Part shown: positions 1-21,949 of the stretch, piece after piece
Layout: every line of letters starts with the position of its first letter
How positions within the stretch are numbered: the stretch's first letter is position 1
DNA from: a virus
Taxonomy: Duplodnaviria; Caudoviricetes
Virus record (IMG/VR): IMGVR_UViG_3300049142_000128
Location: 13,128 to 77,127 of that record
Strand: one strand, 5' to 3'
DNA length: 64,000 nt
Translations under genes and position numbers: made by a program
The notes under the pieces: model-generated
The model's input: only the letters and a program-made list of their open reading frames with translations
Told to the model about the DNA's origin: nothing
Database searches by the model: none

Positions 1-1092
1 TGGGCGGACATCTGGTGGCCTCTGCGCGCTGTCGAGCCGGGCACGCTCCAGCGGGACATGTCCCGGCGCAAGACGCACCTCGAGCCGAAGTGGGGCACCA
101 CGCGCCTCGACGCGATCCGCCGCGACGCAGTCCAGGAGTGGGTCAACGACCTCTACACGAGCGGCATGGCCGCGGCGACGGTCGAACGCTGCTACCGGCT
201 CTTCTCGGCGTCGATGAAGGCTGCGGTCGTGGCTGAGCGGCTCGACGCCACCCCTTGCGTGAAGATCGACCTGCCCAGGAAACCGCCGGCCGACGAGCGC
301 TACCTGACCCACGAGGAGGTCGAGGCGATCACGCACTTCCTCGACCCGCAGGCCGCGCTGCTCGTGTGGTTCCTCGTTGGCACCGGCGTGCGGTGGGGCG
401 AGGCCGTCGGCGTCCACCTGCACCGCGTGCACCTCAAGCACGCGCGCCTCGACATCCACGAGGTGTGGGACCAGCGGACCGGCGAGATCAAGCCCTACCC
501 GAAGGGACGCCAGAAGCGCTCCGTGCCGCTCTCGGCGAGCCTGACCGCGAAGCTCAAGACGCACGTGAACGGCTTGCGCAGGTCCGGATCATGCGGGTCG
601 CCGCACCGAAGAGGCTCGCACTGCCAGGCGCCGCTGCTCTTCCCGAACACCCGAGGGAAGGTCCTCGACTACAACAACTTCCGCAGCAACGAGTGGGAGC
701 GCGTCGTAGGGAAGTGGACCTGGGCAGCGCCGGACGGCACCACGTTCCGAACCGCCTCCGCCGCGCGGAAGAAGCTCGGCGAGGACGTCGAGCTGACGAG
801 GCGATGGAAGGCCGGCCACGTGGATATCGGTCCGGTCACGATCCATGACCTACGTCACACATATGCGTCCTGGCTCATCCAAGACGGCGTGTCCCTCGAG
901 GAACTTCGCGACCTCCTCGGCCACGAATCCGTGAAGACAACCGAGCGATACGCGCACCTCGCGCAGAGCCAGTGGAGCAGGGTGCGGCAGGCCCTCGACG
1001 CGAAACCTGCCCCAGATCTGCCCCAAGTCGATCAACTGGCGATCATGCGTGATCGAAAAGCACACCGTCTGCGCAGGTCAGCAGGGGTGTAA
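1..1092 (+). CDS. int: Tyrosine integrase (5' end outside window)
   Basis: Frame open from base 1; catalytic motifs GVRWGEA (R), HDLRHTYAS (HxxR), LLGH and TERYAH (Y). Confidence 0.95.
   Translation, partial: WADIWWPLRAVEPGTLQRDMSRRKTHLEPKWGTTRLDAIRRDAVQEWVNDLYTSGMAAATVERCYRLFSASMKAAVVAERLDATPCVKIDLPRKPPADERYLTHEEVEAITHFLDPQAALLVWFLVGTGVRWGEAVGVHLHRVHLKHARLDIHEVWDQRTGEIKPYPKGRQKRSVPLSASLTAKLKTHVNGLRRSGSCGSPHRRGSHCQAPLLFPNTRGKVLDYNNFRSNEWERVVGKWTWAAPDGTTFRTASAARKKLGEDVELTRRWKAGHVDIGPVTIHDLRHTYASWLIQDGVSLEELRDLLGHESVKTTERYAHLAQSQWSRVRQALDAKPAPDLPQVDQLAIMRDRKAHRLRRSAGV
1007..1027 (+). repeat. Pair of putative integrase arm-type sites (CTGCCCCAGA, CTGCCCCAAG)
   Basis: Direct repeats at 1007 and 1018 (11-bp period) inside the int 3' end; same motif pair on the other side of the core. 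Confidence 0.7.
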
Positions 1093-1276: not shown

Positions 1277-1278
1277 TC

Positions 1279-3982: not shown

Positions 3983-4037
3983 GCGCTCATCCTCCCGCGG
4001 GGCGGCGACAACGACCCCGCTCCCGAGTCACCCCACG

Positions 4038-6645: not shown

Positions 6646-6647
6646 GA

Positions 6648-7308: not shown

Positions 7309-8619
7309 GTGGCCGAGAATGATCAACTCAGGGCGGCGCGTGAACGCACCGCGTCGCCCGCCCATCCAGGCGAGGGACTGAGCAGGCAGGAACTCGCGCA
7401 GCTCGTCAACGCCTACATCTGGGACACCCACGATAAGCGGGTCGAGGTCGACGCCAACTACATCGGCAAGCTCGAGCGAGGCGGCATCCGCTGGCCCAGC
7501 CAGCTCTACCGCGAGGCCCTCCGCGCCGTCCTGAACGTCAGCACCGACGCCGCCCTCGGGTTCGTCAACCCCCGGCGGACCGTGGTACAGAGGCCCGTGG
7601 ATCGCAAGCAGTTCCTCCGCGGCGCGGCCTTCCTCGGCGCCGGCGCCATGTCCCTTCCCCCGATCGTCGCCCTGCTCGAGGGCAGCGAACCCACACCGGT
7701 GCCCCCCAAGGTCAGCGCCCGGGACGTCGAGCAGATCCACACGGCCGCCCGGGTCTTCGCGACCTGGGACCACACCTACGGCGGCGGTCTCGCCCGCGAG
7801 GCTGTGCAGGCGCAGCTGCGCTGGTCTGCCGGGCTCCTCGAGTCCACGGTCCCGGAGAAGCTCCGGGCCCCGCTGCTCTCCGCGGTCGGCTACCTGGCCC
7901 ACACGACCGGCTTCATGGCCTTCGACGCCTACGCCCACGACGACGCGCAGCGCATCTTCCGGTACGCGCTCACCTGCGCCGAGGAGGCCGGCGACTGGCA
8001 CCTCCGCGCGAAGATCCTCTCCAGCATGGCGCGGCAGGCGATCTGGATCGGCAGGCCCGACGACGGACTCACGCTGGCCGAGTTCGCGCTGGTGCGCGCC
8101 GACCGCCTCTCCGCCACCGAGCGGGCAATGCTGCACGTGGCCCACGCCCGCGCCCTCGCGAAGATGGGCCGAGTCGGGGACACCCTCACCGCCGTCGGCG
8201 CGGCCGACGACGAGTTCGCACGCCGCAACCCAGCATCCGACGCCCCGTGGATGGCCTACTACGACGCCGCGCAGCACGCGGGCGACTCCGGCCACGCCCT
8301 GTTCGACCTGGCCGTGATCGGCCGCTCTCGGGAGGAAGCCCGCAGCCGGCTCGCGGCCGCCGTGGCGGGCCACGGCCCGGCCTACGCCCGCTCCCGCGCG
8401 ATCGCGCAGACGAAGCTGGCCAGCCTCACCATGCTGGCCGGGGACCCGGTCGAGGCCGCCACGATCGGCCGCGAGGCCGTGGAGACGGCCGGGACGCTGC
8501 GGTCCCGACGAGCCGCGGACGATCTCCGGGAGCTGGGCCGCTACGCCGGACGGCACCCGAAGGTCGCCGAGGTCGTCGAGCTCCGGCACCGGATCAGCCG
8601 GACCGTCATCGCCTCGTGA
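7309..8619 (+). CDS. XRE-type HTH plus helical (TPR/NsdA-like) transcriptional regulator
   Basis: LRAARE...LSRQELAQ...YIGKLERGGIRWP HTH followed by all-helical repeats; GTG start with GGGAGG SD. Confidence 0.85.
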   Translation: MAENDQLRAARERTASPAHPGEGLSRQELAQLVNAYIWDTHDKRVEVDANYIGKLERGGIRWPSQLYREALRAVLNVSTDAALGFVNPRRTVVQRPVDRKQFLRGAAFLGAGAMSLPPIVALLEGSEPTPVPPKVSARDVEQIHTAARVFATWDHTYGGGLAREAVQAQLRWSAGLLESTVPEKLRAPLLSAVGYLAHTTGFMAFDAYAHDDAQRIFRYALTCAEEAGDWHLRAKILSSMARQAIWIGRPDDGLTLAEFALVRADRLSATERAMLHVAHARALAKMGRVGDTLTAVGAADDEFARRNPASDAPWMAYYDAAQHAGDSGHALFDLAVIGRSREEARSRLAAAVAGHGPAYARSRAIAQTKLASLTMLAGDPVEAATIGREAVETAGTLRSRRAADDLRELGRYAGRHPKVAEVVELRHRISRTVIAS

Positions 8620-9503
8620 GCAGCGCACCCGAGCGCGCGGCGCTCGACCTCCTCGCGGCGGCCTGCGCGCAGGTCGGGCTGGACATGGCGGGAGCCGAGA
8701 TCATCCGGCTCGGTGAGAACGCGATCTTCCGGCTCCCCGGAGGTGTCGTGACCCGGATCGCGCGGCCCGGCCAGCTCGCCGCCGCGACGCGAGAGGTTCG
8801 GATCGCTCGCTGGTTCGCCGATCAAGGTGTGCGCGCGGTGCGCGCGCTGGACAGCATCGCGCAGCCGCTGAACGTCGAGCAGCATCCGGTGACGTTCTGG
8901 GAGGAGCTGCCGCCGCACCGGCACGGCACCGTGCTCGAGGTCGCCGACGCCCTGCGCCAGCTGCACGGGCTGCCGCTCCCCGACTGCGATCTGCTCGGCC
9001 CCCTCGACCCGTTCGTCCGGCTGACCGAGCGCATCGAGGGCGGCGCCACGCTGCCCGCCGATGATCGGGCCTGGCTGCGGCAGCACCTCGCCGCGCTGCG
9101 CCAGCGCTACCAGACCCTCCCGCCGGGGCTGCCGCATCGTGTGGTGCACGGCGACGCGTGGGGCGGCAACATCGTCACCACCCACGACGGCCGGACCCTG
9201 CTCCTCGACCTCGAACGCTGCTCCGTCGGGCCGCCCGAGTGGGACCTCGTGTCGATCGCGCTCCGGCGGGGCTCGTTCGGCTGGCTCTCTGACGCCGACT
9301 ACCAGGCCTTCGCGAGCCGGTACGGCCACGACGTGACGACGTGGTCTGGCTACGAGCTGCTCCGCGACATCCGCGAGCTGCGCATGGCGCTCTACCGCGT
9401 TCAGCGCGCCGCCGAGCACCCCGGCGAGCGTGGCGAGGCGCAGCTCCGGGTCGCAAGCCTTCGAGGACGGCACGGCCCGCGACCGTGGGCATGGGGCCGC
9501 TGA
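8616..9503 (+). CDS. APH/choline-kinase-like phosphotransferase
   Basis: RLGENAIF, VVHGDAWGGNI, LLDLE, GPPEWDL; GTGA overlap with the regulator. Confidence 0.88.
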   Translation: MSSAPERAALDLLAAACAQVGLDMAGAEIIRLGENAIFRLPGGVVTRIARPGQLAAATREVRIARWFADQGVRAVRALDSIAQPLNVEQHPVTFWEELPPHRHGTVLEVADALRQLHGLPLPDCDLLGPLDPFVRLTERIEGGATLPADDRAWLRQHLAALRQRYQTLPPGLPHRVVHGDAWGGNIVTTHDGRTLLLDLERCSVGPPEWDLVSIALRRGSFGWLSDADYQAFASRYGHDVTTWSGYELLRDIRELRMALYRVQRAAEHPGERGEAQLRVASLRGRHGPRPWAWGR

Positions 9504-9527
9504 CCGCCCCCGTCTGACCGATTGATC

Positions 9528-9558
9528 GAAGACCCCCGGCCCCGGCCAGGGGGTCTTC
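9528..9558 (+). terminator. Hairpin terminator
   Basis: GAAGACCCCC-N11-GGGGGTCTTC directly after the phosphotransferase. Confidence 0.7.
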
Positions 9559-9581
9559 GTCGTTCCCGAGCCCGTCGCGAA

Positions 9582-9635
9582 TCTCTTGACGAACGCGACA
9601 AGAGTTGTGCTAGTCTCTTGTCAACAAGCAAGAGA
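9582..9635 (+). promoter_or_regulatory. Promoter/operator copy 1
   Basis: TTGACG-19nt-TAGTCT with alternating CTCTTG/CAAGAG half-sites. Confidence 0.75.
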
Positions 9636-9656
9636 CACCAACCGAGGGAGCCCCAC

Positions 9657-9959
9657 ATGATCGCCACCGCCAACATCGCCCCCATCACCTTCTACGTCGC
9701 GTGGGCGCTCGCCCTCGTCGGCCGCACCCAGGCCGGGCAGGCCTTCTACTCGATCAAGGCCAACGGCCGCCCCATCGGCCGCATCCAGCAGTGCCGCCGC
9801 GCGGACGGCACCGGTGGCACCGGCTTTCTGCTCGAGCTCGACGGCGAGGCGGCCACCATCCGCACTCACCTGCGCGACTGGCGCGAGGTGCGCGACGTCG
9901 TGCGCAACCCGCGCGTGTACGCCTCGGCGAACGCCGGGCGCAGGTGGCGGCTCGTGTAG
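9657..9959 (+). CDS. Hypothetical protein
   Basis: SD GAGGGAG, ATG, GC3-biased codons. Confidence 0.75.
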   Translation: MIATANIAPITFYVAWALALVGRTQAGQAFYSIKANGRPIGRIQQCRRADGTGGTGFLLELDGEAATIRTHLRDWREVRDVVRNPRVYASANAGRRWRLV

Positions 9960-10034
9960 CGCCCCCGGCCCGGCCCTCACCCGGCCGGGCCTCACGCCCG
10001 CCTCCTCCCCACCCACACCGGAAGGACTCCGACC

Positions 10035-10265
10035 ATGACCCGCGCGATCACCCTCACCGACCTGCACTACACGTTCAAGCCCGTCACCGTGCCCGTCGAG
10101 CAGGTCGGCGCCGCCCTGCGCCCGTGGACGGAGCCGTGGGGCGCCCGGTTCGTCGACGTGGCCGAGGAGTTCGCCGCCGCGGTGTACGCGGGCGACGACG
10201 AGGCCGCCGGTGAGCTGGCCGGACATCTCGGCATCGGCTGGGAGGACACGCCGCAGGCCACCTGA
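10035..10265 (+). CDS. Hypothetical protein
   Basis: SD GAAGGA; GC3 bias. Confidence 0.75.
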   Translation: MTRAITLTDLHYTFKPVTVPVEQVGAALRPWTEPWGARFVDVAEEFAAAVYAGDDEAAGELAGHLGIGWEDTPQAT

Positions 10266-10321
10266 CCCCTCACCACCCGGCCGGCCACCGGCCCACCGCT
10301 CCCGCTCGAAGGACACCGCCG

Positions 10322-11155
10322 ATGACCGCCGCCCCCGCCGCCCGCACCTTCTACGTCGGCGCCCCCGCACCCAAGTGGCTCACCCTCACCACCGTCCCCC
10401 AGTTCGTCTCCCATACGCGCCTCCGCACCCGCCGCAACCTCCCCCGCGCCGTCGCCCGGTGGGCACTCGACTCCGGCGGCTTCACCGAGCTCTCCCGCCA
10501 CGGCCGGTGGACCATCACCCCCGCCGCGTACGCCACTGCCGTGCGCCGCTACCGCGACGAGATCGGCGGCCTCGACTGGGCCGCCCCGCAGGACTGGATG
10601 TGCGAGCCCGAGCAGCTCGACAACACCGGGCTCACCGTCGCCGAGCACCAGCGCCGCACCGTCGACAACTACCTCGAGCTGCGCGCCATCGCCCCCGATC
10701 TGCCGATCATCCCCGTGGTGCAGGGCTGGACCGTGGGCAGCTACCGCCGCTGCGTCGAGCTGTACGCGGCCGCCGGCGTCGACCTGCGCGCCGAGTCCGT
10801 CGTCGGCATCGGCTCCGTCTGCCGCCGGACGAACCCGGTCACGGTCGCGCTCATCGTCGACGAGCTGCGGGCCCTCGGCCTGTCCGGCCTGCACGGGTTC
10901 GGGGTGAAGTCCGACGCCCTCGCCCTGGTCGCGGGGCAGCTGTCCTCGGCCGACTCGCAGGCGTGGTCGAGCGCCGCACGGGCGCGCCGCGAGCCCTGCT
11001 CGGAGGACTCGGCCCGCCGGGACTGCCGCAACTGCATGCACTACGCCCTCGAGTGGGTGGATCAGCTGCGCACGGCGATCCGCTGGCACGACGTGCCGAC
11101 GGCTCTGCTGCCGGCGCCGCGGAACGCTGTCGACGAGCTCACCTTGTCCGCGTAA
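10322..11155 (+). CDS. TGT-fold (DpdA-like) guanine transglycosylase homologue
   Basis: WALDSGGF, APQDWMCEP, PVVQGW, GIGSVCRR, LHGFGVK, SADSQAWS and C-terminal C..CxxC.H cluster. Confidence 0.8.
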   Translation: MTAAPAARTFYVGAPAPKWLTLTTVPQFVSHTRLRTRRNLPRAVARWALDSGGFTELSRHGRWTITPAAYATAVRRYRDEIGGLDWAAPQDWMCEPEQLDNTGLTVAEHQRRTVDNYLELRAIAPDLPIIPVVQGWTVGSYRRCVELYAAAGVDLRAESVVGIGSVCRRTNPVTVALIVDELRALGLSGLHGFGVKSDALALVAGQLSSADSQAWSSAARARREPCSEDSARRDCRNCMHYALEWVDQLRTAIRWHDVPTALLPAPRNAVDELTLSA

Positions 11156-11179
11156 GCCAGCGCACCACCTCCGGAAGTT

Positions 11180-11231
11180 CCTTGACAGGTACGACAAGAG
11201 TTCTGTTAGACTCTTGTCAGCAAGCAAGAGA
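11180..11231 (+). promoter_or_regulatory. Promoter/operator copy 2
   Basis: TTGACA-19nt-TAGACT with CAAGAG/CTCTTG/CAAGAG sites. Confidence 0.75.
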
Positions 11232-11251
11232 CCGACCCTGAGGAGCTCCTG

Positions 11252-11827
11252 ATGGCCGCCACCACTGTCGCCCCCGCCGCCCGCTACATCGGCGTGACCG
11301 ACGAGTGCGTTGAGTGTCAGCAGTGCGGCAAGGTCGGCCTGCGCTCCACCGTCGTCCTCGGCCTCCTCGACGCCGACGGCAACGTCGACGAGGTCACCTA
11401 CTACGGCTCGGACTGCGCCGCCCGCGCCCTCGGTGTCGGCGGCGGTGCCCGCAAGGTCCTCGCCGCCGCCCGCGAGGCCGACCGCACCACTCGCGCGCTG
11501 GCCGCCGACGCCCGCGACCGGGCCGCCCACTACGGCTACGACCCGGTCACCGGCGAGATCACCACCGCCCGCAGCTTCGCTGAGATCGCCGTCCGCCGCC
11601 GCCGGCTCTACGTCGGCTCCCCGTGGGCCGCGGACATGACCTGGCAGGACTGGCAGGACGCGGCGCGCGAGATGATCGCCCGCGACGTGGCCGCGGTCGC
11701 CGCCGAGCGGCTGCTGGACGGCGTCCGCCCCGCCGCCGCGGCCTCCGCTCCGACCGAGGAGCCGGCCGCGCCGGTGCTCGTCGACGGCGCCCCGTTCGAG
11801 CTCGCCCCGGTGGGCGCCCTGTTCTGA
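11252..11827 (+). CDS. Hypothetical protein with CxxCxxC motif
   Basis: DECVECQQCGK...YYGSDCAA; SD GAGGAG. Confidence 0.75.
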   Translation: MAATTVAPAARYIGVTDECVECQQCGKVGLRSTVVLGLLDADGNVDEVTYYGSDCAARALGVGGGARKVLAAAREADRTTRALAADARDRAAHYGYDPVTGEITTARSFAEIAVRRRRLYVGSPWAADMTWQDWQDAAREMIARDVAAVAAERLLDGVRPAAAASAPTEEPAAPVLVDGAPFELAPVGALF

Positions 11828-11830
11828 AGA

Positions 11831-11884
11831 TCTCTTGACGAGCACGTCAAGAGACGTGCTAGACTCTTGTCAGCAGTCAAGAGA
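11831..11884 (+). promoter_or_regulatory. Promoter/operator copy 3
   Basis: TTGACG-19nt-TAGACT; perfect IR TCTCTTGAC-N6-GTCAAGAGA plus second IR CTCTTG-N8-CAAGAG. Confidence 0.78.
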
Positions 11885-12801: not shown

Positions 12802-13341
12802 TCAGGAGAGAGCGGCCGGTAGGAGCAGCGCAGCCGCGAGCACGAGCCCGCGGAAGATCCACTGCTCCGCCGGCCCGGCCGTCCGAAACCGCAACCAGTA
12901 CGGCCACACGACCCGTACTCGGAACGGCCAGAACAGGAAGTCGAGGGACGTCTTTGTCGGGACGTCCCCCAGTACGCCAGCGAGGTAGCCGAGCGTCCCG
13001 AATGCCGCCGTACACACGGCAGCGAGCGGGACGAGCCAGTACGCGGACAGAACGCCGAGCAGTACGCCCCACAGCAGGGACGCCGCGATCGTGTGGGTGA
13101 GCCCGCGGTGCGCCATCCCCACCACGCGTACCGACAGCAGCCGTACCGCCCAACACACCCCCCAGGAGAACGGCGGCAGGCACTTCGCCGCCGTCGCGTT
13201 CGGGTGGTCGACGTCGGGCACGTAGGCCGACGCCGCTCCGACGACCGCGAGCACGGGAACCGCGGTCACCGGGAGATCGAGCACCGCGGCGGCGCCGAGC
13301 GCAGCGACCGCGCCCGTCGCGAAGTGGGTGCGGCCCATCAT
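12802..13341 (-). CDS. YdjM-like membrane metal-dependent hydrolase
   Basis: MGRTH, PDVDHP, HRGLTHT motifs and several TM segments. Confidence 0.85.
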   Translation of the reverse strand: MMGRTHFATGAVAALGAAAVLDLPVTAVPVLAVVGAASAYVPDVDHPNATAAKCLPPFSWGVCWAVRLLSVRVVGMAHRGLTHTIAASLLWGVLLGVLSAYWLVPLAAVCTAAFGTLGYLAGVLGDVPTKTSLDFLFWPFRVRVVWPYWLRFRTAGPAEQWIFRGLVLAAALLLPAALS

Positions 13342-13354
13342 CGGGCCTCACCCC

Positions 13355-13500
13355 GCAGGATCGGCAGGGTTCGCAGGGTTGACGAGGGGGTCACACACCC
13401 TGCAGCCGGCGGAACCGCTGGTAAGACCCCCCTTCTGGAATCCTGCCAGGGTCCACGGCAGGGTCCGAACAGGGTTCGAGCAGGGTCGCGGTGCAGGGTC
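13355..13500 (-). repeat. clt-like array of 8-bp direct repeats (minus-strand consensus RACCCTGC), putative TraB recognition sequences
   Basis: Plus-strand (G)CAGGGT(C/T) at 13364, 13373, 13446, 13458, 13469, 13480, 13493; variant at 13355; inverted copies at about 13397 and 13439. Confidence 0.75.
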
Positions 13501-14677
13501 ATCCGACGCCCACAGCCTCTCGCTCGGGCTCCTTCTCAGCCTCGTCGTCGAGGAGCGCGAGGAGCCGCTCGGCGACCGTCTGGCGGCAGCCGTAGCGCTT
13601 CCGCACCTGATACGCCGTCGGGGGCTCGTCGAGCTCGGCGGCCCACTTCCGGAAGTCGTTCTCGCGGTCTGTGTCGACCGGGACGAGGCGCCGCGGCGGC
13701 GTACCGCCGGGCCGGTCCGCGTTCGGCCGCTGCTCGGTACCCGACTCGGTACGGGCGTCGGTACGGAACGTCGGGGCGTGCTGCTCGACCGGTGCCTCGT
13801 CGGTACGGGGCATCGGTACGGGCGGCGTACCAGCGTGCCCGTTCAGCCAGAACAGCGTCAGCCCGCACGCGTCCAGCAGGGTGAGGAACCGGCCGAGCGT
13901 TCCGTCCCGCCGGGACGCCTGACGGGCAGTACGGCGTGCGAGCCGCTCGGCCTCCGATCCGGACCACGCCGTGCGCGGGTCGGTGATGCCGTGCGCGATC
14001 GAGTAGCGGCGGGCGAGCCAGGTGCGAACCGGGAACGCACGCCAGCGCGCGGACGAGAACAGCGCGCCGGTGTCATCGACGCGACCGTCCTGCTTGCGCT
14101 GCAGGTGGACCGCGCGGCGGGTGTGCATCCCCCACAGCCACGGCTGCAGCGCGGAGAACAGGGCGAACACGACGGCGCTGTCGGTCGGTGCCCAGCCGTC
14201 GGCGAAATGGGCGTAGTTGATCCCGGCCACCGCCAGCGCGAGCCCGTACGCCGCGACCCGTCGCCGGGATGCGGTGGCCGTGTCGCCCGCGAGCAGCGCG
14301 CCGTGGGCGTACCAGGCGACGGTGTTCGCGATCGACTCGACGGTCGCGGCGAAGCCGACCGCCACGACCGCGCGCACGACCCACGGCCACGTCGGCTCGG
14401 TGAGGTGGGCGAAGGCGTAGCCGACCTGCCCGAACATCGCGAACACGGTCACCGCGGCGAGCGGCGCGACCGGGCGCAGAGCGGCCACGCGGGCCGAGCA
14501 GGCCCTCCACCGCGCCGATCGGGCCGTACGCCGCAGGGCCCGCTGTGCCGCCTTCTCCGCCCGGCGCCGTGCCCGCGCGGCCGCCTTCTCGGCGCGGCGC
14601 TGGCGACGCAGCTCGGCGAGGGTGCGCAGCCAGTCCAGCCGGCCGCCGCCGCGCTCGCGCTCGTCGACGTCGGTCAC
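13499..14677 (-). CDS. SpdA/DUF2637-like membrane spread protein
   Basis: Four TM helices, GINYAHF, FALFSALQPWLW, C-terminal HTH-like PTAYQVRKRYGCRQTVAERL. Confidence 0.65.
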   Translation of the reverse strand: MTDVDERERGGGRLDWLRTLAELRRQRRAEKAAARARRRAEKAAQRALRRTARSARWRACSARVAALRPVAPLAAVTVFAMFGQVGYAFAHLTEPTWPWVVRAVVAVGFAATVESIANTVAWYAHGALLAGDTATASRRRVAAYGLALAVAGINYAHFADGWAPTDSAVVFALFSALQPWLWGMHTRRAVHLQRKQDGRVDDTGALFSSARWRAFPVRTWLARRYSIAHGITDPRTAWSGSEAERLARRTARQASRRDGTLGRFLTLLDACGLTLFWLNGHAGTPPVPMPRTDEAPVEQHAPTFRTDARTESGTEQRPNADRPGGTPPRRLVPVDTDRENDFRKWAAELDEPPTAYQVRKRYGCRQTVAERLLALLDDEAEKEPEREAVGVG

Positions 14678-16908
14678 TCCGCGTCCCTCCGGGCGAGCCG
14701 GGCCGCGATCTGCTTGAGCTTCGGCACGTCATAGCCCTGGAGGCGGCCTCGCTGCTCGGTGCGGATCTCCTCGTCGATCGAGGCCATCTCTCGGCCGAGC
14801 TTCCGGGCCGCCTCCTTGAGGTCCGCCTCGGGGGCGTCGGCGACGACGCGGTCGAGGAGGATCGCGAGCTGCCGCGTCGAGATGAAGTCGCGGGGCGCCT
14901 GCTCGTCCCGCAGCAGCGTGATCACGGACTGGAGGGGCTCCGGCAGCGTGATGGCGGGCTTCTTCGCGATCTCACGCAGCTCGGCGGCCGCGGCCTCGGC
15001 GTCCGGGAACGCCACGGCGCCGGGCTGCTCGTCGGAGATCTTCGGCTGCGCCGGCTGCTCCGGCGTCTGCTGCTCGGCCGCGGGCGCGGCGCCGGTCTCC
15101 TGCTCGATCATCTGCCAGAGCTCCTGATCCATCTCGTCGCCGAGCTGGCCCACCGGCCACTCCAATCCGTCTCGTGCCGCCGCGGCGGCGAGTTCAGGCA
15201 GCCGGGAGGCGTCCCACCGGCCGGTCCACACCTCGCCGAGCTGGTCGGCGATGTCGGCCTCGAGTTCGGGCCGCCACTGCCCGTTCCGCTCCGCGATCGG
15301 GGCGACGAGGTCCTTCGCGAGGTTGTAGGCCTTCGCCGGCATGACCCGCGGCTCGTCGATCGACGGCTGCACGAGCATCGAGTTGTGCTTGAGTTGCGCC
15401 GTGTCGGCGTACTTGACCTTGAGCCCGGGCAGCACCGACTGCCCGTCCTGCGGGGCGAGGGTCTTGAGGCAGATCCGGTACGGGGTGTTGCGGGCGATCT
15501 CGGCCCCGTAGTCGCCGAGCGCGTTGTAGAGGTCGGTCTGGTTGATCGCCCAGACCGACACCTGCGCGGACCGGTTCTCCCCGAGGATCATGTGCAGCAG
15601 CTGGGAGAAGCCGACGACCTGGCCGGTATGCAGCTCGACGGTCGCGCCGGCGCTGGCCAGCTTCCCGGCCTCCTCGACGAAGCACACGATCGCTGGCTCC
15701 TTCGGCGTCGGCGTGTGGACGTCTTCGTTCGAGAGCCTCGCGTTGCGCTCGCAGACGATCTGGTAGACCGCGGCGAGCATGAGCAGCGCCTGCCCCGGGT
15801 GCTGGCCAGCGACGAAGTCGAGCGCCGGCTTCGGGCACTTGCCCTCGAGCCACGGCTTGATCCATGGGTAGACCAGCGGTACGAGCTTGTTCGAGGCGAC
15901 CACTCCGACGAGGACGTCGCCGCACTCGCCGACCCGGCCGATGATCGAGTTGGTGAGCCGAGACTTCCCGGAGCCGGTCGCGCCGACGATCTTTCCGTTC
16001 GCGCCGCCCTGCTCCCCGCCGAACGTGACGGTGACATGCTGCCCGTCCTCGAACAGGGCGTAGTCGAGCGGGTCGCCGATCGTGCCGGGCGCCTGTTCGA
16101 ACGGCTCGTAGTCGATGGACTCGCGGAGGATGTGCTTCGTGCACACGTGGATGAGGTGCACGTGCGCGGCCTCGGTGGGCTCGACACGGATCGTGCCGGC
16201 GCTGACCGTGACGCCCTCGCGGGCGAGGAGCGACGACGCCTTCGTCGTGAGGTCCGGGAGGGCACCCTCGAGGATGGCGAACGTGACGGGCTTCGTCTCC
16301 TCGATCGGCTCGACGCCGAGCACGTACCCGGCCCGGGTCGGCTGGGTCTCGACGATGCGCAGGGGCAGGTTGGCGGCTTCGAGGATCTCCGTCCACGTCG
16401 CGGTCGCCCGCTCGATGAGTGCCTGCTCGCGCTCCTCGAGCACGCGGGCGGCCGCCTTCGGGGCGGAGGTGCGCAGCACCCAGTACCAGCCGCCGAACCA
16501 GATGAACCCGATGACCAGCATGCCGAGGGCGTGCAGGGGGGACGTCCAGCACGCGTAGACGAGCCAGGCGGAGGCGGCGCAGCTCGCGATGATGGCGAGG
16601 ACGCTCATGGACGCGCGCAGCTCGTGCCCGTAGTCGTTCTCCGGGAAGGCGCGGCGGGCCCGGCCGACGCCGATCGCGGCGGCGATCGGGGCGAGGAGGG
16701 CGAGCGCGATCGGGGGGATCCCGAAGGCCGGGTAGTCGGCCACGAGCGCGAGGCAGTAGCACCACAGCGCGGTCTCGAGGGGATGCGCCCAGCGCACGTC
16801 CGGCTCCCAGGTCGACAGGCGCCGCACCTTCGGCGCTTCCTCCAGCTGCCCCCGCGCGGCCTTGCGCTCCGCCGGGGAGGACGTCGTAGACGTGGTTGTG
16901 CTGCTCAC
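14674..16908 (-). CDS. traB: FtsK/SpoIIIE-family conjugative DNA translocase (TraB-like)
   Basis: N-terminal TM helices, Walker A GATGSGKS (15961-15984), Walker B-like IVCFVEE, C-terminal winged-helix-like region; GTGA overlap. Confidence 0.8.
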   Translation of the reverse strand: MSSTTTSTTSSPAERKAARGQLEEAPKVRRLSTWEPDVRWAHPLETALWCYCLALVADYPAFGIPPIALALLAPIAAAIGVGRARRAFPENDYGHELRASMSVLAIIASCAASAWLVYACWTSPLHALGMLVIGFIWFGGWYWVLRTSAPKAAARVLEEREQALIERATATWTEILEAANLPLRIVETQPTRAGYVLGVEPIEETKPVTFAILEGALPDLTTKASSLLAREGVTVSAGTIRVEPTEAAHVHLIHVCTKHILRESIDYEPFEQAPGTIGDPLDYALFEDGQHVTVTFGGEQGGANGKIVGATGSGKSRLTNSIIGRVGECGDVLVGVVASNKLVPLVYPWIKPWLEGKCPKPALDFVAGQHPGQALLMLAAVYQIVCERNARLSNEDVHTPTPKEPAIVCFVEEAGKLASAGATVELHTGQVVGFSQLLHMILGENRSAQVSVWAINQTDLYNALGDYGAEIARNTPYRICLKTLAPQDGQSVLPGLKVKYADTAQLKHNSMLVQPSIDEPRVMPAKAYNLAKDLVAPIAERNGQWRPELEADIADQLGEVWTGRWDASRLPELAAAAARDGLEWPVGQLGDEMDQELWQMIEQETGAAPAAEQQTPEQPAQPKISDEQPGAVAFPDAEAAAAELREIAKKPAITLPEPLQSVITLLRDEQAPRDFISTRQLAILLDRVVADAPEADLKEAARKLGREMASIDEEIRTEQRGRLQGYDVPKLKQIAARLARRDAE

Positions 16909-18674
16909 GGTCGCTCCCGGTTCGCGCTGAGGTCCCACTTCTCCTGGTGAGCCTTCGGGTTCCGGAGCTTCTCGAGGTCCTCGATGTGGGCGCGCTCGAA
17001 TGTGGCGCGGGCGTCCTCGCACGGGCCCTTGTAGGCCTGGAACTGCGCTCCGAGCCGAGCGGCGAACTCCCCGGCCGCGGGGTAGAGGAAGAACTCCTCG
17101 GTGTTCCGGGCGCCCTGCGTGGTCAGCATGGCCGAGATCGCGTCGACCAGTCCCGGCATGCCCTCGTACCAGTCGATGACGCGCAGCGCGTTGTCCGGGG
17201 AGTAGGCCTGCGCGGCCTGCGCGCACGCCTCGATGACCGCGGCGAACGGGTTGTGTCCGGACACCGGGGCGGAGCCGAGCTGGGTGCCGCGGCTGGCGCG
17301 AAGGCCGGTCGCGTTGATCTTCGGGCGGCGGCGCATGGGCATCGTGTCTCCGAGGGGTCGTCTCGTTCCGGTGGTCGCCGGCTTCAGCGCGTTGTCGATC
17401 GCCTTCCGCGCGATCGCGGACGTGCCGCGCTGGCCGGTGTGCTGCTGCTTCGTCCTCGGCTTGCGGTGGCGATGCGGGCGGGCGGTGTGCCGCCCGGCGA
17501 GGTAGCCGAGGATGCGGCGGATCCCGGCGAGGCGCCCGCCGCTCGACCGCTGCCCGGCCGGCAGGCTTCCGCGCCCTCGGCGCTGACCGCCGCTGCCGGG
17601 AAGGGTGCCGCGGCCCGACCGCTGCCCGCCGCTGCCAGGCAGAGTTCCGCGTCCAGTGCGGCCGACGAGCGACCTCGGGCGGGTCCCGTTGGCTCGCCAT
17701 GCCTTCGCGAGGCGCCGGGCACGGGCGAGGTTCCCCAGCCGTCCCGCCGCGCCAGCCAGACCCCCGGAGCCGCGCCACCCGCGACCCGACCTCGGACGGC
17801 TCGACGTCGGGGCGCCGCCGCGCGAGCGCCGTCCCGTGGGGCCCGGGGACGAGGAGCGGCGACGACCTGCGACGGGGCGCCCCGAGCCGGTGCGTCCGGG
17901 GCGGCCGCCGGTGAGCAGCCGCCGCAGCGCCGCGCCAGGCCCGGAGCGCGACCCGCCGTTGCGGCTTCCGGCCCCGCCCCCGCGGCCTCCGCCGCTCGTG
18001 CGCCCGGCCTTCCCGACAGGGCGCCCCTTGCCCGCGGTGCTGCCGCCGCCGCGGCCCAAGCCGCGCAGCCCGCCCAGCAGGCCGCGGCCCTTCCCCAGGC
18101 CACCGCCTCGCGACAGGCCGCCGCGCCCGTTCGACCCGGCCCCGGCCGAGCGCCCTGCGCCGGCGGAGCGGCCCGCACCGGTGGATCGCCCCGCCCCGGT
18201 ACCGGTACGCGGCGAGGCGCCCTTCCTCGAGGCGCCGCCGCGGAGCCCGAGTCCGCCCAACGCGCGGCCGAGCCCGAGCCCACCACCTCGGCGCCCTGAG
18301 CCGGGCGCGCCGCCGCGCGAGTTCGCGGTTCCGCGACGAGCGGCCGCACCCTGGCCGAGCCCGAGGCTCGGAATCCGGGCCGAGAGCCCACCGCGCCCGG
18401 CCTGTCGGGCGGCGCGGTGAGCACGACGCAGCTCCCGCTCTGCGACGCGGAGCCGGTTCTTCGCCTCCTTCGCGGCCAGCTCGTGCGGAGAGCGGTTGCG
18501 GTCGCGCATCGCGGCGACGCCTGCGCCAGCCGCGGCCACACCCGCGGCAGCGAGGAGACCGACCGGGCCGAACACGGCACCGGTCGACGCAACGGCAGAC
18601 GCGGCGGCCGGAGTGGCGAGCTCCCAGGCCTGCCGCGTCATCAGCGGGGGCGGCTTCTCGACGTCGCTCATCAC
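16905..18674 (-). CDS. TraA-like protein (Gly/Arg-rich centre, conserved C-terminal domain)
   Basis: C-terminal FERAHIEDLEKLRNPKAHQEKWDLSAN resembles proteins encoded upstream of traB in Streptomyces plasmids. Confidence 0.6.
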   Translation of the reverse strand: MMSDVEKPPPLMTRQAWELATPAAASAVASTGAVFGPVGLLAAAGVAAAGAGVAAMRDRNRSPHELAAKEAKNRLRVAERELRRAHRAARQAGRGGLSARIPSLGLGQGAAARRGTANSRGGAPGSGRRGGGLGLGRALGGLGLRGGASRKGASPRTGTGAGRSTGAGRSAGAGRSAGAGSNGRGGLSRGGGLGKGRGLLGGLRGLGRGGGSTAGKGRPVGKAGRTSGGGRGGGAGSRNGGSRSGPGAALRRLLTGGRPGRTGSGRPVAGRRRSSSPGPTGRRSRGGAPTSSRPRSGRGWRGSGGLAGAAGRLGNLARARRLAKAWRANGTRPRSLVGRTGRGTLPGSGGQRSGRGTLPGSGGQRRGRGSLPAGQRSSGGRLAGIRRILGYLAGRHTARPHRHRKPRTKQQHTGQRGTSAIARKAIDNALKPATTGTRRPLGDTMPMRRRPKINATGLRASRGTQLGSAPVSGHNPFAAVIEACAQAAQAYSPDNALRVIDWYEGMPGLVDAISAMLTTQGARNTEEFFLYPAAGEFAARLGAQFQAYKGPCEDARATFERAHIEDLEKLRNPKAHQEKWDLSANRERP

Positions 18675-18883
18675 GCCGCCACCGAGTTGAGGGCGGACAC
18701 GACGCCGTCCCAGGCGCCTGAGATCAGGCCCTGGGCGCCGCTGTAGATCGCATCACCGGCGTCGGTGTCAGCGGCGCCGACACCGATGCAGAAGATCGAG
18801 AGGATGGTGACCCACGCCCAGCCGCGCCAGAGGCCGACCGCTGCGATGATCGCGAAGACGATGATCCACGGGAGGCCGGCCAT
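18671..18883 (-). CDS. Small membrane protein (Spd-like)
   Basis: Two hydrophobic helices; ATGA-coupled to the next gene. Confidence 0.65.
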   Translation of the reverse strand: MAGLPWIIVFAIIAAVGLWRGWAWVTILSIFCIGVGAADTDAGDAIYSGAQGLISGAWDGVVSALNSVAA

Positions 18884-18917
18884 CACACGGCCCTACGCGG
18901 GAGGAGCAGAAAGCCGG

Positions 18918-19154
18918 CTACTGCCGCTCGAGGTAGAGCTTCGCCCACCGCCGGGCGTTGGACTGTGCGATGCCGGTCTGCGCTTCGATATCTCGCCAGG
19001 ACAGCCCGCGGGCCCGCATGGCGACCATGAGCGCGCCCCGAGTGGACATGAGTGCCGAGTTGTCCGCGACGCCCCGTGCACGCTCGATCAACTCGGGCAA
19101 CGGCACCTCCGCCATCGGATCGGGCGGCGCACCTTCCTCGGGGTCGGTCGGCAT
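18918..19154 (-). CDS. Small HTH DNA-binding protein
   Basis: RARGLSWRDIEAQTGIAQSNARRW HTH at the head of the tra cluster. Confidence 0.7.
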   Translation of the reverse strand: MPTDPEEGAPPDPMAEVPLPELIERARGVADNSALMSTRGALMVAMRARGLSWRDIEAQTGIAQSNARRWAKLYLERQ

Positions 19155-19540
19155 GATCGAGGACCCTAGCTGGCGCCCGGGTGGTCTCCATGACGCACGA
19201 GTGTGCCATTTTTGGCACACCAGCGGCAAACGACCCCCGCGACCACCGCTCAGCGGCTCAGGGTGACGTGGGTCCGCACTCGGCCAGCCGCACGGCCTCG
19301 AGGCGGCCAGCGCGATGAACCCCGGACGAAGGAGCCCGGCGGTGCACTGGTTGTGAGCCTTGGAGCACCGCCGGGCCTGGGCGGACAAGCCGCCCACCTG
19401 TCGACCGCTCAACGCCATGCCCTCGTTAACAGGAGTCGGCGTGATCCACTCCATAGGGGACACCCGTAACGTCGCTGAGGCGCTGCAGAGCCGCCCCGCC
19501 AGGCTGCATCGGCCAGGCGGGGCGCCCACGCGATCGATGT

Positions 19541-21070: not shown

Positions 21071-21335
21071 GTCGGCGCACCTCCCTCGCGTTGCTCCGCC
21101 GCTGGAACGGGATGACCAGCGGCCGGTAGCGGCGCGGCGGAGCAGGCAGAGGCCGGATCTGGCGCTGCTGCGCGTCGAAGCAGGCGGCCCAGTCGTCGGG
21201 CAGCCGCGGCGCGGCCCATGGCTGGATGAGCCGGAGGACGCGAAGCCCCTCCTCGACGCTGGCGCGCGGTCGATCGGCGGGGGCCGGTGGACGGCGCAGG
21301 CCAGGCGTGGTCCGGCCGGGGAACACGCGGGTCAT
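21051..21335 (-). CDS. Possible hypothetical protein
   Basis: ATGA overlap with the sortase stop; Pro/Arg-rich. Confidence 0.35.
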   Translation of the reverse strand: MTRVFPGRTTPGLRRPPAPADRPRASVEEGLRVLRLIQPWAAPRLPDDWAACFDAQQRQIRPLPAPPRRYRPLVIPFQRRSNAREVRRHVRSPR

Positions 21336-21949
21336 GGCAGCTCTCCGGCGAGGCGGGCGTAGACGACCCAGTTGTCGCGGTAGTGGCCTTCTCCGTGGTC
21401 GAACTCGCCGCCGCAGGTGATGAGCCGCAGCTCCGGGCCCGTGGTGTTGCCGTATACGCGGGAGGTCGGGAACGCGTCCTTCGGGTAGCGCTCGAGGCGG
21501 TCGACGAGGAACCGCAGCGTCGAGGCGCCGTCGCGCGTCACGAACACCTCGTCGCCGGGGCGCAGCTCGTGCAGCCGGTAGAAGATCCCGGGCTGGCCCT
21601 TGCGGCCGCCGATCTCGCCGTCGACGTGCCCCGCGATGACGGCCGGCCCGACCTCGCCGGGCAGAACCTCGTCGCCCTCGAACGCCGGGTCCGGGCCGGC
21701 GTAGTAGCCGGCCTGCATCGGCTGGTCGGTGGGGGTTGGGACGAGCTCGCCGGTGGCCGGGTCGAGCCCGAGCGGCACCAGCGTCGAGCGGGCGTCGATG
21801 GCGGGGATCGTGATCTCCGTCGGGACGACGGCCGGCACCGGGATGGTGGCGGTCGGAGCCCCGGACGACTGCGCGGGCGGCTCGTCGGGCGCGATGGCGC
21901 ACCCGACGAGCAGCACGGCGCCCGCGAGCAGGGTGACGAGCCGGATCAA
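21332..21949 (-). CDS. Class F sortase
   Basis: N-terminal signal/anchor, ITIPAID, AVIAGHVD, LRLITCGG...YRDNWVVYA. Confidence 0.9.
   Translation of the reverse strand: MIRLVTLLAGAVLLVGCAIAPDEPPAQSSGAPTATIPVPAVVPTEITIPAIDARSTLVPLGLDPATGELVPTPTDQPMQAGYYAGPDPAFEGDEVLPGEVGPAVIAGHVDGEIGGRKGQPGIFYRLHELRPGDEVFVTRDGASTLRFLVDRLERYPKDAFPTSRVYGNTTGPELRLITCGGEFDHGEGHYRDNWVVYARLAGELP

What the first reader, a model, noticed from the sequence alone, without database searches (positions are those of the whole stretch)
12802..19154. A virion-encoding phage that also carries an AICE/plasmid-type TraB conjugation system
Seen: a coupled minus-strand cluster of HTH regulator, small membrane protein, TraA-like protein, FtsK-type ATPase with TM anchor, Walker A and winged helix, SpdA-like protein, clt-like repeats and a YdjM-like hydrolase. 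It lies between the holin and attP of a phage with a full head, tail and lysis set. Known: TraB alone transfers circular dsDNA between actinomycete hyphae, and Spd proteins spread it within mycelium; this is typical of plasmids and AICEs, not of tailed phages. Inference: a phage-AICE hybrid with two transmission routes, virions and contact-dependent transfer of the excised circle, which bypasses receptors and possibly DNA-injection defences. This is the best candidate for an undescribed system here.
Basis: partly seen in the sequence, partly recalled or inferred. Interest (0 to 1): 0.9.

Follow-up and report, generated by a model that had tools for sequence, protein, structure and literature searches.

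The report
Phage-borne TraB-like DNA pump module
A complete 77-kb temperate tailed phage of a high-GC actinomycete carries a conserved membrane gene cassette built around a plasmid-type (TraB-like) DNA pump with its own array of docking repeats, which suggests but does not prove that the phage DNA can also pass between host cells without virus particles; one experimental precedent (plasmid-phage pZL12) exists.

Summary
The cluster is real. The window is part of a single 77,127-bp virus record with integrase, replication, head, tail and lysis genes. After the holin, behind a terminator-like hairpin, lies an operon of its own. It encodes a 65-aa HTH protein, a 71-aa membrane protein, and a 589-aa membrane protein with a Gly/Arg-rich middle. 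Then come a 744-aa FtsK-fold ATPase (membrane anchor, motor, winged helix), a multi-TM protein with a C-terminal HTH, seven co-oriented RACCCTG repeats, and YdjM.

The cassette and the repeat array recur at the same position in independent metagenome contigs whose ATPase is 56-87% identical. So it is neither a chimera nor a separately excising island.

The ATPase profile aligns to the proven pIJ101 Tra protein (95% probability, 337 columns). It is a divergent family below all curated cut-offs. The labels "TraA-like" and "SpdA-like" are unsupported, and attP was not located.

Best reading (about 0.55): a TraB/clt-like system that moves phage dsDNA between hyphal compartments or cells. Function is untested. 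The idea has precedents: pZL12, and SpdB2 homologues in phiC31 and VWB. Earlier notes of this scan describe similar modules on other DNA (41 notes, at least 38 genomes).

The parts
19491..19526 (-). GC-rich terminator-like hairpin just after the holin stop. It separates the late/lysis operon from the cassette.
   Evidence: Read from the sequence. The simple terminator scan did not list it because it has no T run.
19201..19220 (.). Perfect 8-4-8 palindrome GTGTGCCA-AAAA-TGGCACAC upstream of the HTH gene. Candidate operator of the cassette promoter.
   Evidence: Sequence read. Function is inferred.
18918..19115 (-). 65-aa HTH protein, first gene of the cassette.
   Evidence: Pfam DUF6362 E 1.3e-5 and HTH_28 E 2e-3, both below cut-off. 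75% identical copy at the same place in L009.
18671..18886 (-). 71-aa small membrane protein.
   Evidence: Hydrophobic N-terminal half. 49-67% identical copies just upstream of the pump genes in L004, L005 and L009. Its stop overlaps the next start.
16905..18674 (-). 589-aa protein: one N-terminal TM helix, about 380 aa of Gly/Arg/Ser-rich low complexity (27% G, 19% R), and a conserved C-terminal domain of about 150-175 aa. No known family.
   Evidence: Frame kept open and colinear in L009. The C-domain is 57% identical in L004, and is also found in L005, L008 and pGBA129-24a. No Pfam, PHROG or NCBIfam match.
14674..16908 (-). 744-aa TraB-like FtsK-fold dsDNA translocase: TM helices at about 38-145, a long helix, a pre-motor alpha/beta domain, a RecA-type motor (Walker A 309-316, Walker B EE 412-413), a disordered linker 587-635 and a winged helix 659-743.
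   Evidence: AF2 pLDDT 83. Foldseek FtsK motor on dsDNA E 3e-13. hhalign to pIJ101 Tra 95.3%, 337 columns. NCBIfam plasmid_TraB E 9e-8, 31 bits. phrog_31069 E 2e-21. Invariant motifs in 20 homologues.
13499..14677 (-). 392-aa membrane protein: basic coiled N-terminus, 2-4 TM helices, and a conserved C-terminal HTH-like domain of about 60 aa. SpdB-like by architecture only.
   Evidence: The C-terminal 50-60 aa are 45-55% identical to the genes that follow the pump in L004 and L005. The nearest Atlas clusters carry DUF2637, SpdB_N or HTH_SpdB_C at scores 0.86-0.89, which is a lead only. No Pfam or BLAST support.
13355..13500 (-). clt-like array. Block A has five RACCCTG copies at 11-13 nt spacing, starting on the stop codon of the preceding gene. 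A central GC-rich inverted element follows. Block B has two RACCCTG copies plus a GATCCTG variant, ending about 10 nt before the YdjM start.
   Evidence: The same motif, layout and position occur in L004 (8-10 copies), L005/L006 (5-6) and L009. L007 has ACCCGTTG x4 in the equivalent spacer.
12802..13341 (-). 179-aa YdjM-family membrane metal-dependent hydrolase, last gene of the cassette.
   Evidence: Pfam PF04307 E 2.5e-19. A YdjM gene lies beside or near the pump gene in all the loci looked at: L004, L005, L006, L007, L008, L009 and pGBA129-24a.
1..1092 (+). Tyrosine integrase, 3' part. The gene starts 200 nt before the window, at record position 12927. It is the only recombinase found.
   Evidence: Pfam Phage_integrase E 1e-21 on L003:12927-14219.

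Best explanation
The cassette is a phage-adapted counterpart of the TraB/clt/Spd system of actinomycete plasmids.

Proposed mechanism:
1. The membrane-anchored ATPase assembles as a ring, as FtsK and TraB do.
2. It docks on the phage's own double-stranded DNA at the RACCCTG array, through its C-terminal winged helix or through the HTH tail of the neighbouring membrane protein.
3. It pumps the circular (excised or replicating) phage genome through a membrane and cell-wall passage. The co-translated membrane proteins and the YdjM hydrolase help to form that passage.
4. The result is capsid-independent movement of the phage replicon across hyphal cross-walls, and possibly into a touching recipient hypha, where the integrase can establish lysogeny.

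Shown: gene content, fold, motifs, the repeat array, and the conservation and linkage of the parts.

Inferred: ring assembly, which protein reads the repeats, the substrate, the direction of pumping, the timing and the host.
For: 1. Fold and plan. The AF2 model has pLDDT 83. Its best structural matches are FtsK motors on dsDNA (E 3e-13), then the conjugation coupling protein TcpA. It has a TM anchor and a C-terminal winged helix. This is the plan described for TraB in PMC4447253.
2. Homology. The family profile aligns to the experimentally proven pIJ101 Tra at 95.3% probability, E 2e-8, over 337 columns. These include the membrane-proximal and pre-motor regions. E. coli FtsK aligns over only 194 columns, in the motor core. 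NCBIfam plasmid_TraB is hit by 12 of 20 family members (best E 2.7e-12).
3. A cis site. Seven co-oriented RACCCTG copies lie in 136 nt, at about one helical turn apart, directly after the pump operon. About 0.01 copies are expected. TraB clt sites are direct 8-bp repeats (PMC4447253, PMC4170104).
4. The array is conserved in sequence, layout and place in contigs whose pump is only 56-57% identical. A 32-35% relative has a different repeat, ACCCGTTG, in the equivalent spacer.
5. The unit travels together. The small TM protein, the Gly/Arg-rich protein's C-domain, the pump, the HTH tail of the membrane protein and YdjM co-occur in phages with different lysis and tail genes. Coupling by 4-nt overlaps matches the spd operons (PMC4447253).
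6. The cassette has its own transcription unit after a terminator-like hairpin, with a palindromic operator candidate.
7. Named carriers of related pumps come from mycelial actinomycetes: Saccharomonospora, Thermobifida and Actinoalloteichus.
8. Precedent. pZL12 is both a phage and a plasmid and needs a tra locus for conjugal transfer (PMC3583192, PMC4487206).
Against: - There are no experimental data for any member of this family.
- Sequence similarity to TraB is weak: 31 bits against a cut-off of 800. Pfam FtsK_SpoIIIE also falls below its threshold.
- 15 of 20 members also touch the T7SS EccCa model.
- hhalign separates Tra from FtsK mainly by alignment length, not by probability (95.3 against 93.5%).
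- The winged helix is generic (Z 5-6.3) and gives no specific match to the FtsK gamma domain.
- No GntR-type TraR/KorA was found, and no demonstrable SpdB2/DUF2637 homologue in this phage.
- The repeats sit right in front of ydjM and could be regulatory.
- The host is unknown, so a mycelial host is only inferred from 72.7% GC and a Streptomyces-type NsdA-family gene.
- No relative was found in 185,579 reference genomes by a pattern scan, so the natural lysogens are unseen.
Confidence: 0.55

Rival explanations
1. Segregation device. The pump acts like FtsK, SpoIIIE or SffA at closing cross-walls or sporulation septa. It uses the repeat array as a loading site to clear or pull the excised or replicating phage genome into compartments or spores. 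Its role is inheritance rather than horizontal movement.
For: The motor is equally FtsK-like. Sequence-directed loading is how FtsK works, from my own knowledge of KOPS. pGBA129-24a shows that a related phage can exist as a circular extrachromosomal replicon.
Against: This phage is integrative (integrase), and an integrated prophage is segregated with the chromosome. The repeats form a single cluster rather than polar, genome-wide words: outside the array there are 5 minus-strand and 7 plus-strand copies. The dedicated membrane partners and YdjM fit a trans-envelope passage better.
Confidence: 0.15
2. Exclusion, defence or host-takeover function. A membrane ATPase blocks or expels incoming phage or plasmid DNA, or manipulates the host envelope. 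The repeats are merely operators that control ydjM or the operon.
For: The cassette lies in the accessory region near other morons: DpdA, APH and a HicA-like gene. There is a local PADLOC hit to mad8 (30.6 bits, residues 402-508). PHROGs files the nearest phage family under 'moron/host takeover'. Block B of the repeats abuts the ydjM start.
Against: The mad8 hit covers only the ATPase core, and no other MADS gene or any other PADLOC family is hit. Five to ten helically phased direct repeats that start on the stop codon of the pump operon are unusual for an operator. They are conserved together with the pump across 56% divergence.
Confidence: 0.12
3. Protein secretion ATPase of the EccC/EssC kind that exports a phage protein.
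For: 15 of 20 family members touch TIGR03924 EccCa (best E 7.8e-9). EccC and EssC appear among the fold matches.
Against: There is a single ATPase domain instead of three, a C-terminal DNA-binding fold and a cis repeat array. No WXG or other ESX parts were seen in the cassette. The best folds are dsDNA translocases.
Confidence: 0.03
4. Passenger. An AICE or plasmid fragment captured by one phage, or an assembly chimera, with no role in the phage's life.
For: The region between the integrase and the lysis genes is cargo-rich.
Against: The same cassette lies in the same position in independent contigs from at least four JGI samples and several Logan runs, with intact motifs. One protein variant alone is recorded in 46 blocks of the assembly collection, mostly on 50-200-kb contigs. 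There is no second integrase nearby and no flanking att-like repeats. No AICE-type Rep, Kor or Pif was seen.
Confidence: 0.05

Closest known systems
Tra(KilA)/TraB - clt - Spd system of Streptomyces plasmids and AICEs (pIJ101, pSVH1)
   Same: Both have a single FtsK-like membrane ATPase with a C-terminal DNA-recognition domain. Both have short direct repeats next to the pump gene. Both have a translationally coupled operon of small membrane proteins, with the pump followed by a multi-TM protein. Profile homology to pIJ101 Tra is 95.3% (PMC4447253).
   Different: The carrier is a 77-kb virion-encoding integrative phage, not a plasmid or AICE. The sequence is very divergent, below the NCBIfam and Pfam cut-offs. 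There is no GntR TraR/KorA. There are extra conserved parts: YdjM and a Gly/Arg-rich membrane protein. The repeat is a 7-mer, RACCCTG. Function is untested.
Streptomyces plasmid-phage pZL12 / phiZL12 (Zhong et al. 2010, as cited in PMC3583192 and PMC4487206)
   Same: One replicon has both phage particle genes and a tra locus required for conjugal transfer. This is the experimental precedent for a phage with two routes of spread.
   Different: pZL12 is an autonomously replicating plasmid with ParAB and RepA. The present phage has a tyrosine integrase, and no partition genes were seen among those scanned. pZL12 was not among the tblastn hits of the pump. I could not read the primary paper because it is not held.
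SpdB2 homologues on actinophages phiC31 and VWB (noted in PMC4447253)
   Same: [quoted passage not shown]
   Different: In that paper those phages are credited only with an SpdB2 homologue. Here the pump and its repeat array are present too, while SpdB2 homology itself is unproven.
FtsK/SpoIIIE-like proteins of Saccharomonospora phage PIS 136 (PIS_041) and of Actinoalloteichus 'plasmid' pGBA129-24a
   Same: These are the nearest named relatives of the pump: 31% identity with E 3e-64, and 23% with E 8e-16. In pGBA129-24a the pump, the upstream C-domain protein and a YdjM-type hydrolase lie between the holin and the recombinase of a complete siphophage.
   Different: They are annotated only as FtsK/SpoIIIE or hypothetical and have not been studied. 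The RACCCTG array is not shared.
FtsK with KOPS / SpoIIIE with SRS (chromosomal translocases)
   Same: They share the motor fold and the logic of a winged helix reading short DNA words (KOPS and SRS from my own knowledge).
   Different: Only the beta-domain core aligns (194 columns). The Pfam score is below the cut-off. The words are clustered at one site rather than spread in a polar way along the genome.

Membership tests
Streptomyces Tra/TraB conjugative dsDNA translocase | FtsK/HerA-type motor with intact Walker A and Walker B | tested here: met
   G312, G314, K315 and E413 are invariant in 20 homologues. Foldseek matches the FtsK motor at E 3e-13.
Streptomyces Tra/TraB conjugative dsDNA translocase | N-terminal membrane anchor | tested here: met
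   Helices 38-58, 66-87, 95-122 and 128-178 in the model. Hydrophobic segments 52-145.
Streptomyces Tra/TraB conjugative dsDNA translocase | C-terminal winged-helix domain that recognises clt | tested here: inconclusive
   A winged-helix fold is predicted (pLDDT 85). The matches are generic MarR, Rex and ArsR types at Z 5-6.3. Binding cannot be tested here.
Streptomyces Tra/TraB conjugative dsDNA translocase | Passes the curated sequence model (NCBIfam NF041214 plasmid_TraB, cut-off 800 bits) | tested here: not met
   31.1 bits, E 9e-8. Control: the proven pIJ101 Tra does not hit this model at all, so the model is narrow.
Streptomyces Tra/TraB conjugative dsDNA translocase | Detectable homology to an experimentally proven Tra protein beyond the P-loop core | tested here: met
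   hhalign of A1 against pIJ101 Tra: 95.3%, E 2e-8, 337 columns, query 110-491. E. coli FtsK gives 194 columns.
Streptomyces Tra/TraB conjugative dsDNA translocase | Adjacent cis-acting locus (clt) made of short direct repeats | tested here: met
   Seven RACCCTG copies in 136 nt after the operon, conserved in relatives. Its cis-acting role is not testable here.
Streptomyces Tra/TraB conjugative dsDNA translocase | GntR-type TraR/KorA repressor (kil-kor pair) | tested here: not met
   No GntR protein in or beside the cassette. Only a 65-aa HTH protein and a palindrome.
Streptomyces Tra/TraB conjugative dsDNA translocase | Promotes transfer of its replicon between mycelia (pocks) | not testable with these tools
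   Needs mating experiments.
SpdB2 / DUF2637 spread proteins | Sequence membership (Pfam PF10935 or similarity to a named SpdB) | tested here: not met
   No PF10935 hit even at E 5. No BLAST similarity to pIJ101 SpdB or to a DUF2637 protein of L008. The Atlas lead of 0.86-0.89 is below its own reliability line.
SpdB2 / DUF2637 spread proteins | Oligomeric multi-TM protein encoded next to the pump, with N-terminal coiled coil and C-terminal soluble domain | tested here: inconclusive
   The architecture fits: a basic coiled N-terminus, TM helices and a C-terminal HTH-like domain. Oligomerisation is not testable.
AICE (actinomycete integrative and conjugative element) | Int + Rep (RepSA, RepAM or Prim-Pol) + Tra in one compact element (criteria of PMC3218068) | tested here: inconclusive
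   Int and a Tra-like pump are present. No AICE-type Rep was seen among the proteins scanned, but not every ORF of the record was scanned. The element is a 77-kb phage with its own helicase, SSB and exonuclease.
Chromosomal FtsK/SpoIIIE | Passes Pfam PF01580 (24 bits) and has a gamma domain | tested here: not met
   15.8 bits, E 0.0095. No FtsK gamma domain appears among the listed fold matches of the C-terminal domain. For the fold this absence is inconclusive.
T7SS EccC/EssC | Three tandem FtsK-like ATPase domains | tested here: not met
   There is one ATPase domain in the model. The hits to TIGR03924 are local.
Tailed temperate phage (Caudoviricetes) | Terminase, portal, major capsid, tape measure, lysis genes and integrase on one molecule | tested here: met
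   PHROG and Pfam hits. The tools describe the record as a virus record of 77,127 bases.

The most novel reading that the evidence does not exclude
Temperate tailed phages of mycelial actinomycetes possess a second, virion-independent transmission route. A phage-native TraB-like pump reads a phage-borne repeat array and moves the excised genome as naked dsDNA across cross-walls and into contacting hyphae. This bypasses receptors and injection-stage defences. In this lineage the machinery includes two parts unknown from plasmids: a YdjM-family membrane hydrolase and a Gly/Arg-rich membrane protein.
Probability: 0.4. Interest if true: 0.8.

Novelty: new variant of a known kind. Interest (0 to 1): 0.55.

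Why it matters
How phages spread inside and between multicellular Streptomyces-type mycelia is an open question (stated in PMC11302927). A phage-encoded, sequence-directed DNA pump would blur the line between viruses and conjugative elements. It would give lysogens a way to spread a prophage without lysis or receptors. It would also change how host range and gene flow of actinophages are estimated.

This lineage offers a compact, testable set: the pump, a 146-bp repeat array and four partner genes, including YdjM, a widespread family with no assigned role in DNA transfer. The finding is tempered by the pZL12 precedent, by many similar earlier notes of this scan, and by the complete lack of functional data.

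Tried and rejected
- Prophage in a bacterial chromosome: rejected. The whole assembly is one 77,127-bp virus record.
- Assembly chimera or separately excising island: rejected on synteny in independent contigs and the lack of flanking repeats.
- 'TraA-like' and 'SpdA-like' names: no support.
- DUF2637/SpdB2 homology of the 392-aa protein: not detectable by Pfam or BLAST. Kept only as a lead.
- Specific FtsK-gamma or TraB-type winged helix: the fold searches gave only generic winged helices.
- phmmer of the pump against PDB sequences: nothing. The family profile gave only P-loop-level FtsK hits.
- Close relatives in IMG/VR by peptide patterns: none. By profile, one distant provirus.
- Relatives in 185,579 reference genomes: none by pattern scan. 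This method is pattern-limited and does not prove absence.
attP was not located.
- Repeat clusters near the pumps of PIS 136, Mwe-JY05, L008, L010 and L011 lie wholly or partly inside low-complexity coding sequence. They were not counted as clt candidates.
- Literature: the pZL12 primary paper is not held. Searching for the pSVH1 repeat word gave only noise. The pSVH1 8-mer I recall is therefore not used as evidence.
- Sigma-70 promoter scan of the region: no hits.
Full report
**What the record is**

The window is bases 13128-77127 of a single 77,127-bp contig with 72.7% GC and no terminal repeat. The tools call it a virus record. Genes were called by third-position GC.

- On the minus strand, record positions 1-11384 hold SSB, a DUF3799 exonuclease, a 979-aa helicase and a Cro/CI-type HTH protein.
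- Still on the minus strand, the window from 63407 down to 19541 holds terminase large subunit, portal, a MuF/protease-like 937-aa protein, major capsid, adaptor, major tail, tape measure, Dit, a 1451-aa tail tip protein, minor tails, a sortase, a CHAP endolysin and an r1t-type holin.
- A tyrosine integrase spans the window start.
- Next comes about 11 kb of mostly plus-strand cargo: an ATP-dependent ligase, a graspetide-type ATP-grasp/PCMT trio (minus strand), an NsdA-family regulator, APH, DpdA, a HicA-like gene and an excisionase-like gene.

Read on the minus strand, the order early genes, late genes, lysis, cassette is that of one circular temperate siphophage genome. No close relative exists among 50,697 isolated phage records, and capsid identity is at most 40%.

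**The observation**

After the holin stop there is a GC-rich hairpin (19491-19526). About 270 nt of spacer follow, then a perfect 20-nt palindrome (19201-19220). Six minus-strand genes come next.

1. A 65-aa HTH protein (18918-19115).
2. A 71-aa membrane protein (18671-18886).
3. A 589-aa ORF (16905-18674).
4. A 744-aa ATPase (14674-16908).
5. A 392-aa membrane protein (13499-14677).
6. After a 157-nt spacer, YdjM (12802-13341).

Genes 2 to 5 overlap by 4 nt at each junction.

The 589-aa ORF looked doubtful because all three codon positions are GC-rich over 17460-18630. However, the same frame stays open and colinear in an 87%-related contig. Its last 175 residues are 57% identical to a called 494-aa gene in a more distant contig. 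It is therefore a real protein with one TM helix, a Gly/Arg-rich middle (27% G, 19% R) and a conserved C-domain of unknown family. Nothing links it to TraA.

**The spacer**

The spacer holds seven RACCCTG words on the coding strand of the operon. Five are spaced 12, 11, 11 and 13 nt, and the first overlaps the stop codon of the 392-aa gene. A GC-rich inverted element follows. Two more copies and a GATCCTG variant end about 10 nt before the ydjM start. The whole record has only 19 such words on both strands. The expectation for 136 nt on one strand is about 0.01.

**The ATPase**

- Pfam FtsK_SpoIIIE is below threshold (15.8 bits).
- NCBIfam's best hit is plasmid_TraB (E 9e-8, 31 bits, cut-off 800).
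- PHROGs gives an 'FtsK/SpoIIIE-like' phage family at E 2e-21.
- Twenty homologues keep Walker A, Walker B and further motor residues invariant.
- An AF2 model (pLDDT 83) shows four N-terminal helices, a pre-motor alpha/beta domain, a RecA-type motor, a disordered linker and a C-terminal helix-strand-helix-helix-wing unit.
- Foldseek ranks FtsK motors bound to dsDNA first (E 3e-13). The conjugation coupling protein TcpA, EccC/EssC and HerA follow.
- The C-terminal 109 residues, modelled alone (pLDDT 85), match only generic winged helices at Z 5-6.3.
- Profile-profile comparison with the experimentally proven Tra (KilA) of pIJ101 gives 95.3% probability, E 2e-8, over 337 columns. These reach back into the membrane-proximal region.
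- The E. coli FtsK motor gives 93.5% over 194 columns of the core only.

As a control, pIJ101 Tra itself does not hit the NCBIfam TraB model at all. Failing that cut-off therefore says little.

Across the 20 members, 12 touch the TraB model and 15 touch EccCa. I conclude that this is a distinct, divergent FtsK-like family with the TraB domain plan and detectable Tra homology. It is not a demonstrated member of TraB.

**The 392-aa protein**

It has a basic coiled N-terminus, TM helices and a C-terminal domain of about 60 aa. That domain is 45-55% identical to the genes that follow the pump in two distant contigs.

It gives no Pfam DUF2637 hit. It has no BLAST similarity to pIJ101 SpdB or to a DUF2637 protein that lies near the pump gene in a relative. 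The protein-language-model atlas places it nearest to actinobacterial clusters carrying DUF2637, SpdB_N and HTH_SpdB_C. The scores, 0.86-0.89, are ones the tool itself calls a lead only. 'SpdB-like by architecture' is as far as the evidence goes, and 'SpdA-like' has none.

**Relatives and linkage**

The pump has 38 cluster-level homologues. All come from metagenomes or Logan assemblies.

- A JGI contig at 87% identity repeats the window's order almost gene for gene: holin, HTH, small TM, Gly/Arg-rich ORF, pump, 403-aa protein, YdjM, excisionase-like gene, DpdA, APH, NsdA-like gene and graspetide genes.
- Contigs at 56-57% identity carry the same core: small TM protein, C-domain protein, pump, TM protein with the conserved HTH tail, the array and YdjM. 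An integrase lies 1-5 kb away and an amidase or tail-fibre-like genes lie nearby. These contigs are 50-100 kb, and one variant is recorded in 46 blocks of the assembly collection.
- All of these carry the same GACCCTG array, in the same two-block layout, between the TM protein gene and ydjM.
- Relatives at 31-35% identity still keep YdjM and a DUF2637 protein near the pump. One has a different word, ACCCGTTG x4, around a GC-rich hairpin in the spacer next to ydjM.

Named relatives are Saccharomonospora phage PIS 136 (E 3e-64), 'Microcystis' phage Mwe-JY05, Thermobifida phage P1312 and the Actinoalloteichus replicon pGBA129-24a. The annotation of pGBA129-24a shows a complete siphophage with terminase, portal, capsid, tape measure, endolysin and holin. 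Its C-domain protein, pump and a YdjM-type hydrolase lie between the holin and a serine recombinase.

There is no second integrase near the block and no flanking att-like direct repeats. The cassette is thus a native, conserved phage module. It is neither a chimera nor an inserted AICE.

**Mechanism**

The published model for Streptomyces conjugation has three elements. A hexameric, membrane-bound TraB recognises direct 8-bp repeats in clt through its C-terminus. It pumps unprocessed dsDNA. Together with co-translated Spd membrane proteins it also drives spreading across cross-walls (PMC4447253, PMC4170104).

The phage cassette reproduces each sequence-level element: the pump plan, a neighbouring multi-TM protein, operon coupling and a phased repeat array just past the operon. 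It adds YdjM and the Gly/Arg-rich membrane protein.

My best reading (about 0.55) is capsid-independent translocation of the phage replicon between hyphal compartments and possibly between hyphae. Which protein reads the repeats, when the operon is on, and whether transfer is between or within mycelia are all inferred.

The rivals are:

- a segregation role (0.15);
- an exclusion, defence or regulatory role (0.12), for which the only support is a local PADLOC mad8 hit over the ATPase core;
- protein secretion (0.03);
- a functionless passenger (0.05).

**What is known already**

[quoted passage not shown] The primary paper is not held.
- Thoma et al. [quoted passage not shown]
- FtsK-like genes in Streptomyces phages are annotated without study (PMC11536984).
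- I found no paper in the held library that describes TraB/clt modules in integrative tailed phages.
- Earlier AI notes of this scan report comparable modules: 41 notes in at least 38 genomes. I treat these as leads, not evidence.

**Verdict**

This is a new variant of a known kind. It is a divergent, phage-native TraB-like pump cassette with a conserved repeat array and two unfamiliar partners. It is interesting and readily testable, but the concept is neither unprecedented nor functionally shown.

Noticed in passing
L014 and L011 (NZ_CP016078.1, Actinoalloteichus sp. GBA129-24 'plasmid' pGBA129-24a): This 59.4-kb circular record filed as a plasmid is annotated with terminase small and large subunits, portal, major capsid, tape measure, endolysin, holin, RusA, SSB, DnaB and a serine recombinase. 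It is a complete siphophage genome, either a phage-plasmid or an excised prophage. It carries the related pump and a YdjM-type hydrolase.
   Followed up: partly
L002 (PP395638.1, 'Microcystis phage Mwe-JY05'): The fetched stretch has 74% GC and carries an actinophage-type pump homologue (E 2e-34), a RecT-like gene and an immunity repressor. Assignment to a cyanobacterial host looks doubtful.
   Followed up: no
window 3272-6362 (minus strand): An ATP-grasp (MvdD-type) ligase, a PCMT-like methyltransferase, an 84-aa candidate precursor and a 236-aa unknown. This is a graspetide-type RiPP cluster inside a phage genome. The ATP-grasp and PCMT genes recur in the 87% relative L009.
   Followed up: partly
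window 7309-9503: An NsdA-family TPR regulator (NCBIfam E 8e-92) and an APH-type phosphotransferase are carried by the phage. They are 90% and 82% identical in L009. This hints at a Streptomyces-like host and at interference with host development.
   Followed up: partly
window 9585-9635, 11181-11231, 11834-11884: Three copies of a 51-nt cassette with TTGAC and nested CTCTTG/CAAGAG palindromes precede the plus-strand genes, including DpdA (10322-11155).
   Followed up: no
window 51562-54375: The 937-aa MuF/protease-like head protein has an internal stretch (residues 302-460) that matches a PHROG annotated as RNA ligase (E 1.4e-33).
   Followed up: no
window 21332-21949: A sortase (Pfam E 1.2e-19) lies between the tail genes and the endolysin.
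   Followed up: no
window 46485-46558: ARAGORN calls a tRNA-Gly with the unusual anticodon ACC on the plus strand. It overlaps a minus-strand ORF with good coding signal (46365-47003), so it is probably a false call.
   Followed up: no
window 1806-2810: An ATP-dependent DNA ligase (LigD-type adenylation and OB domains) lies next to the integrase.
   Followed up: no
window 14674-16908, residues 402-508 of the product: Local PADLOC hit to mad8 of the MADS defence system (30.6 bits). It covers only the ATPase core and no other mad genes are present.
   Followed up: partly
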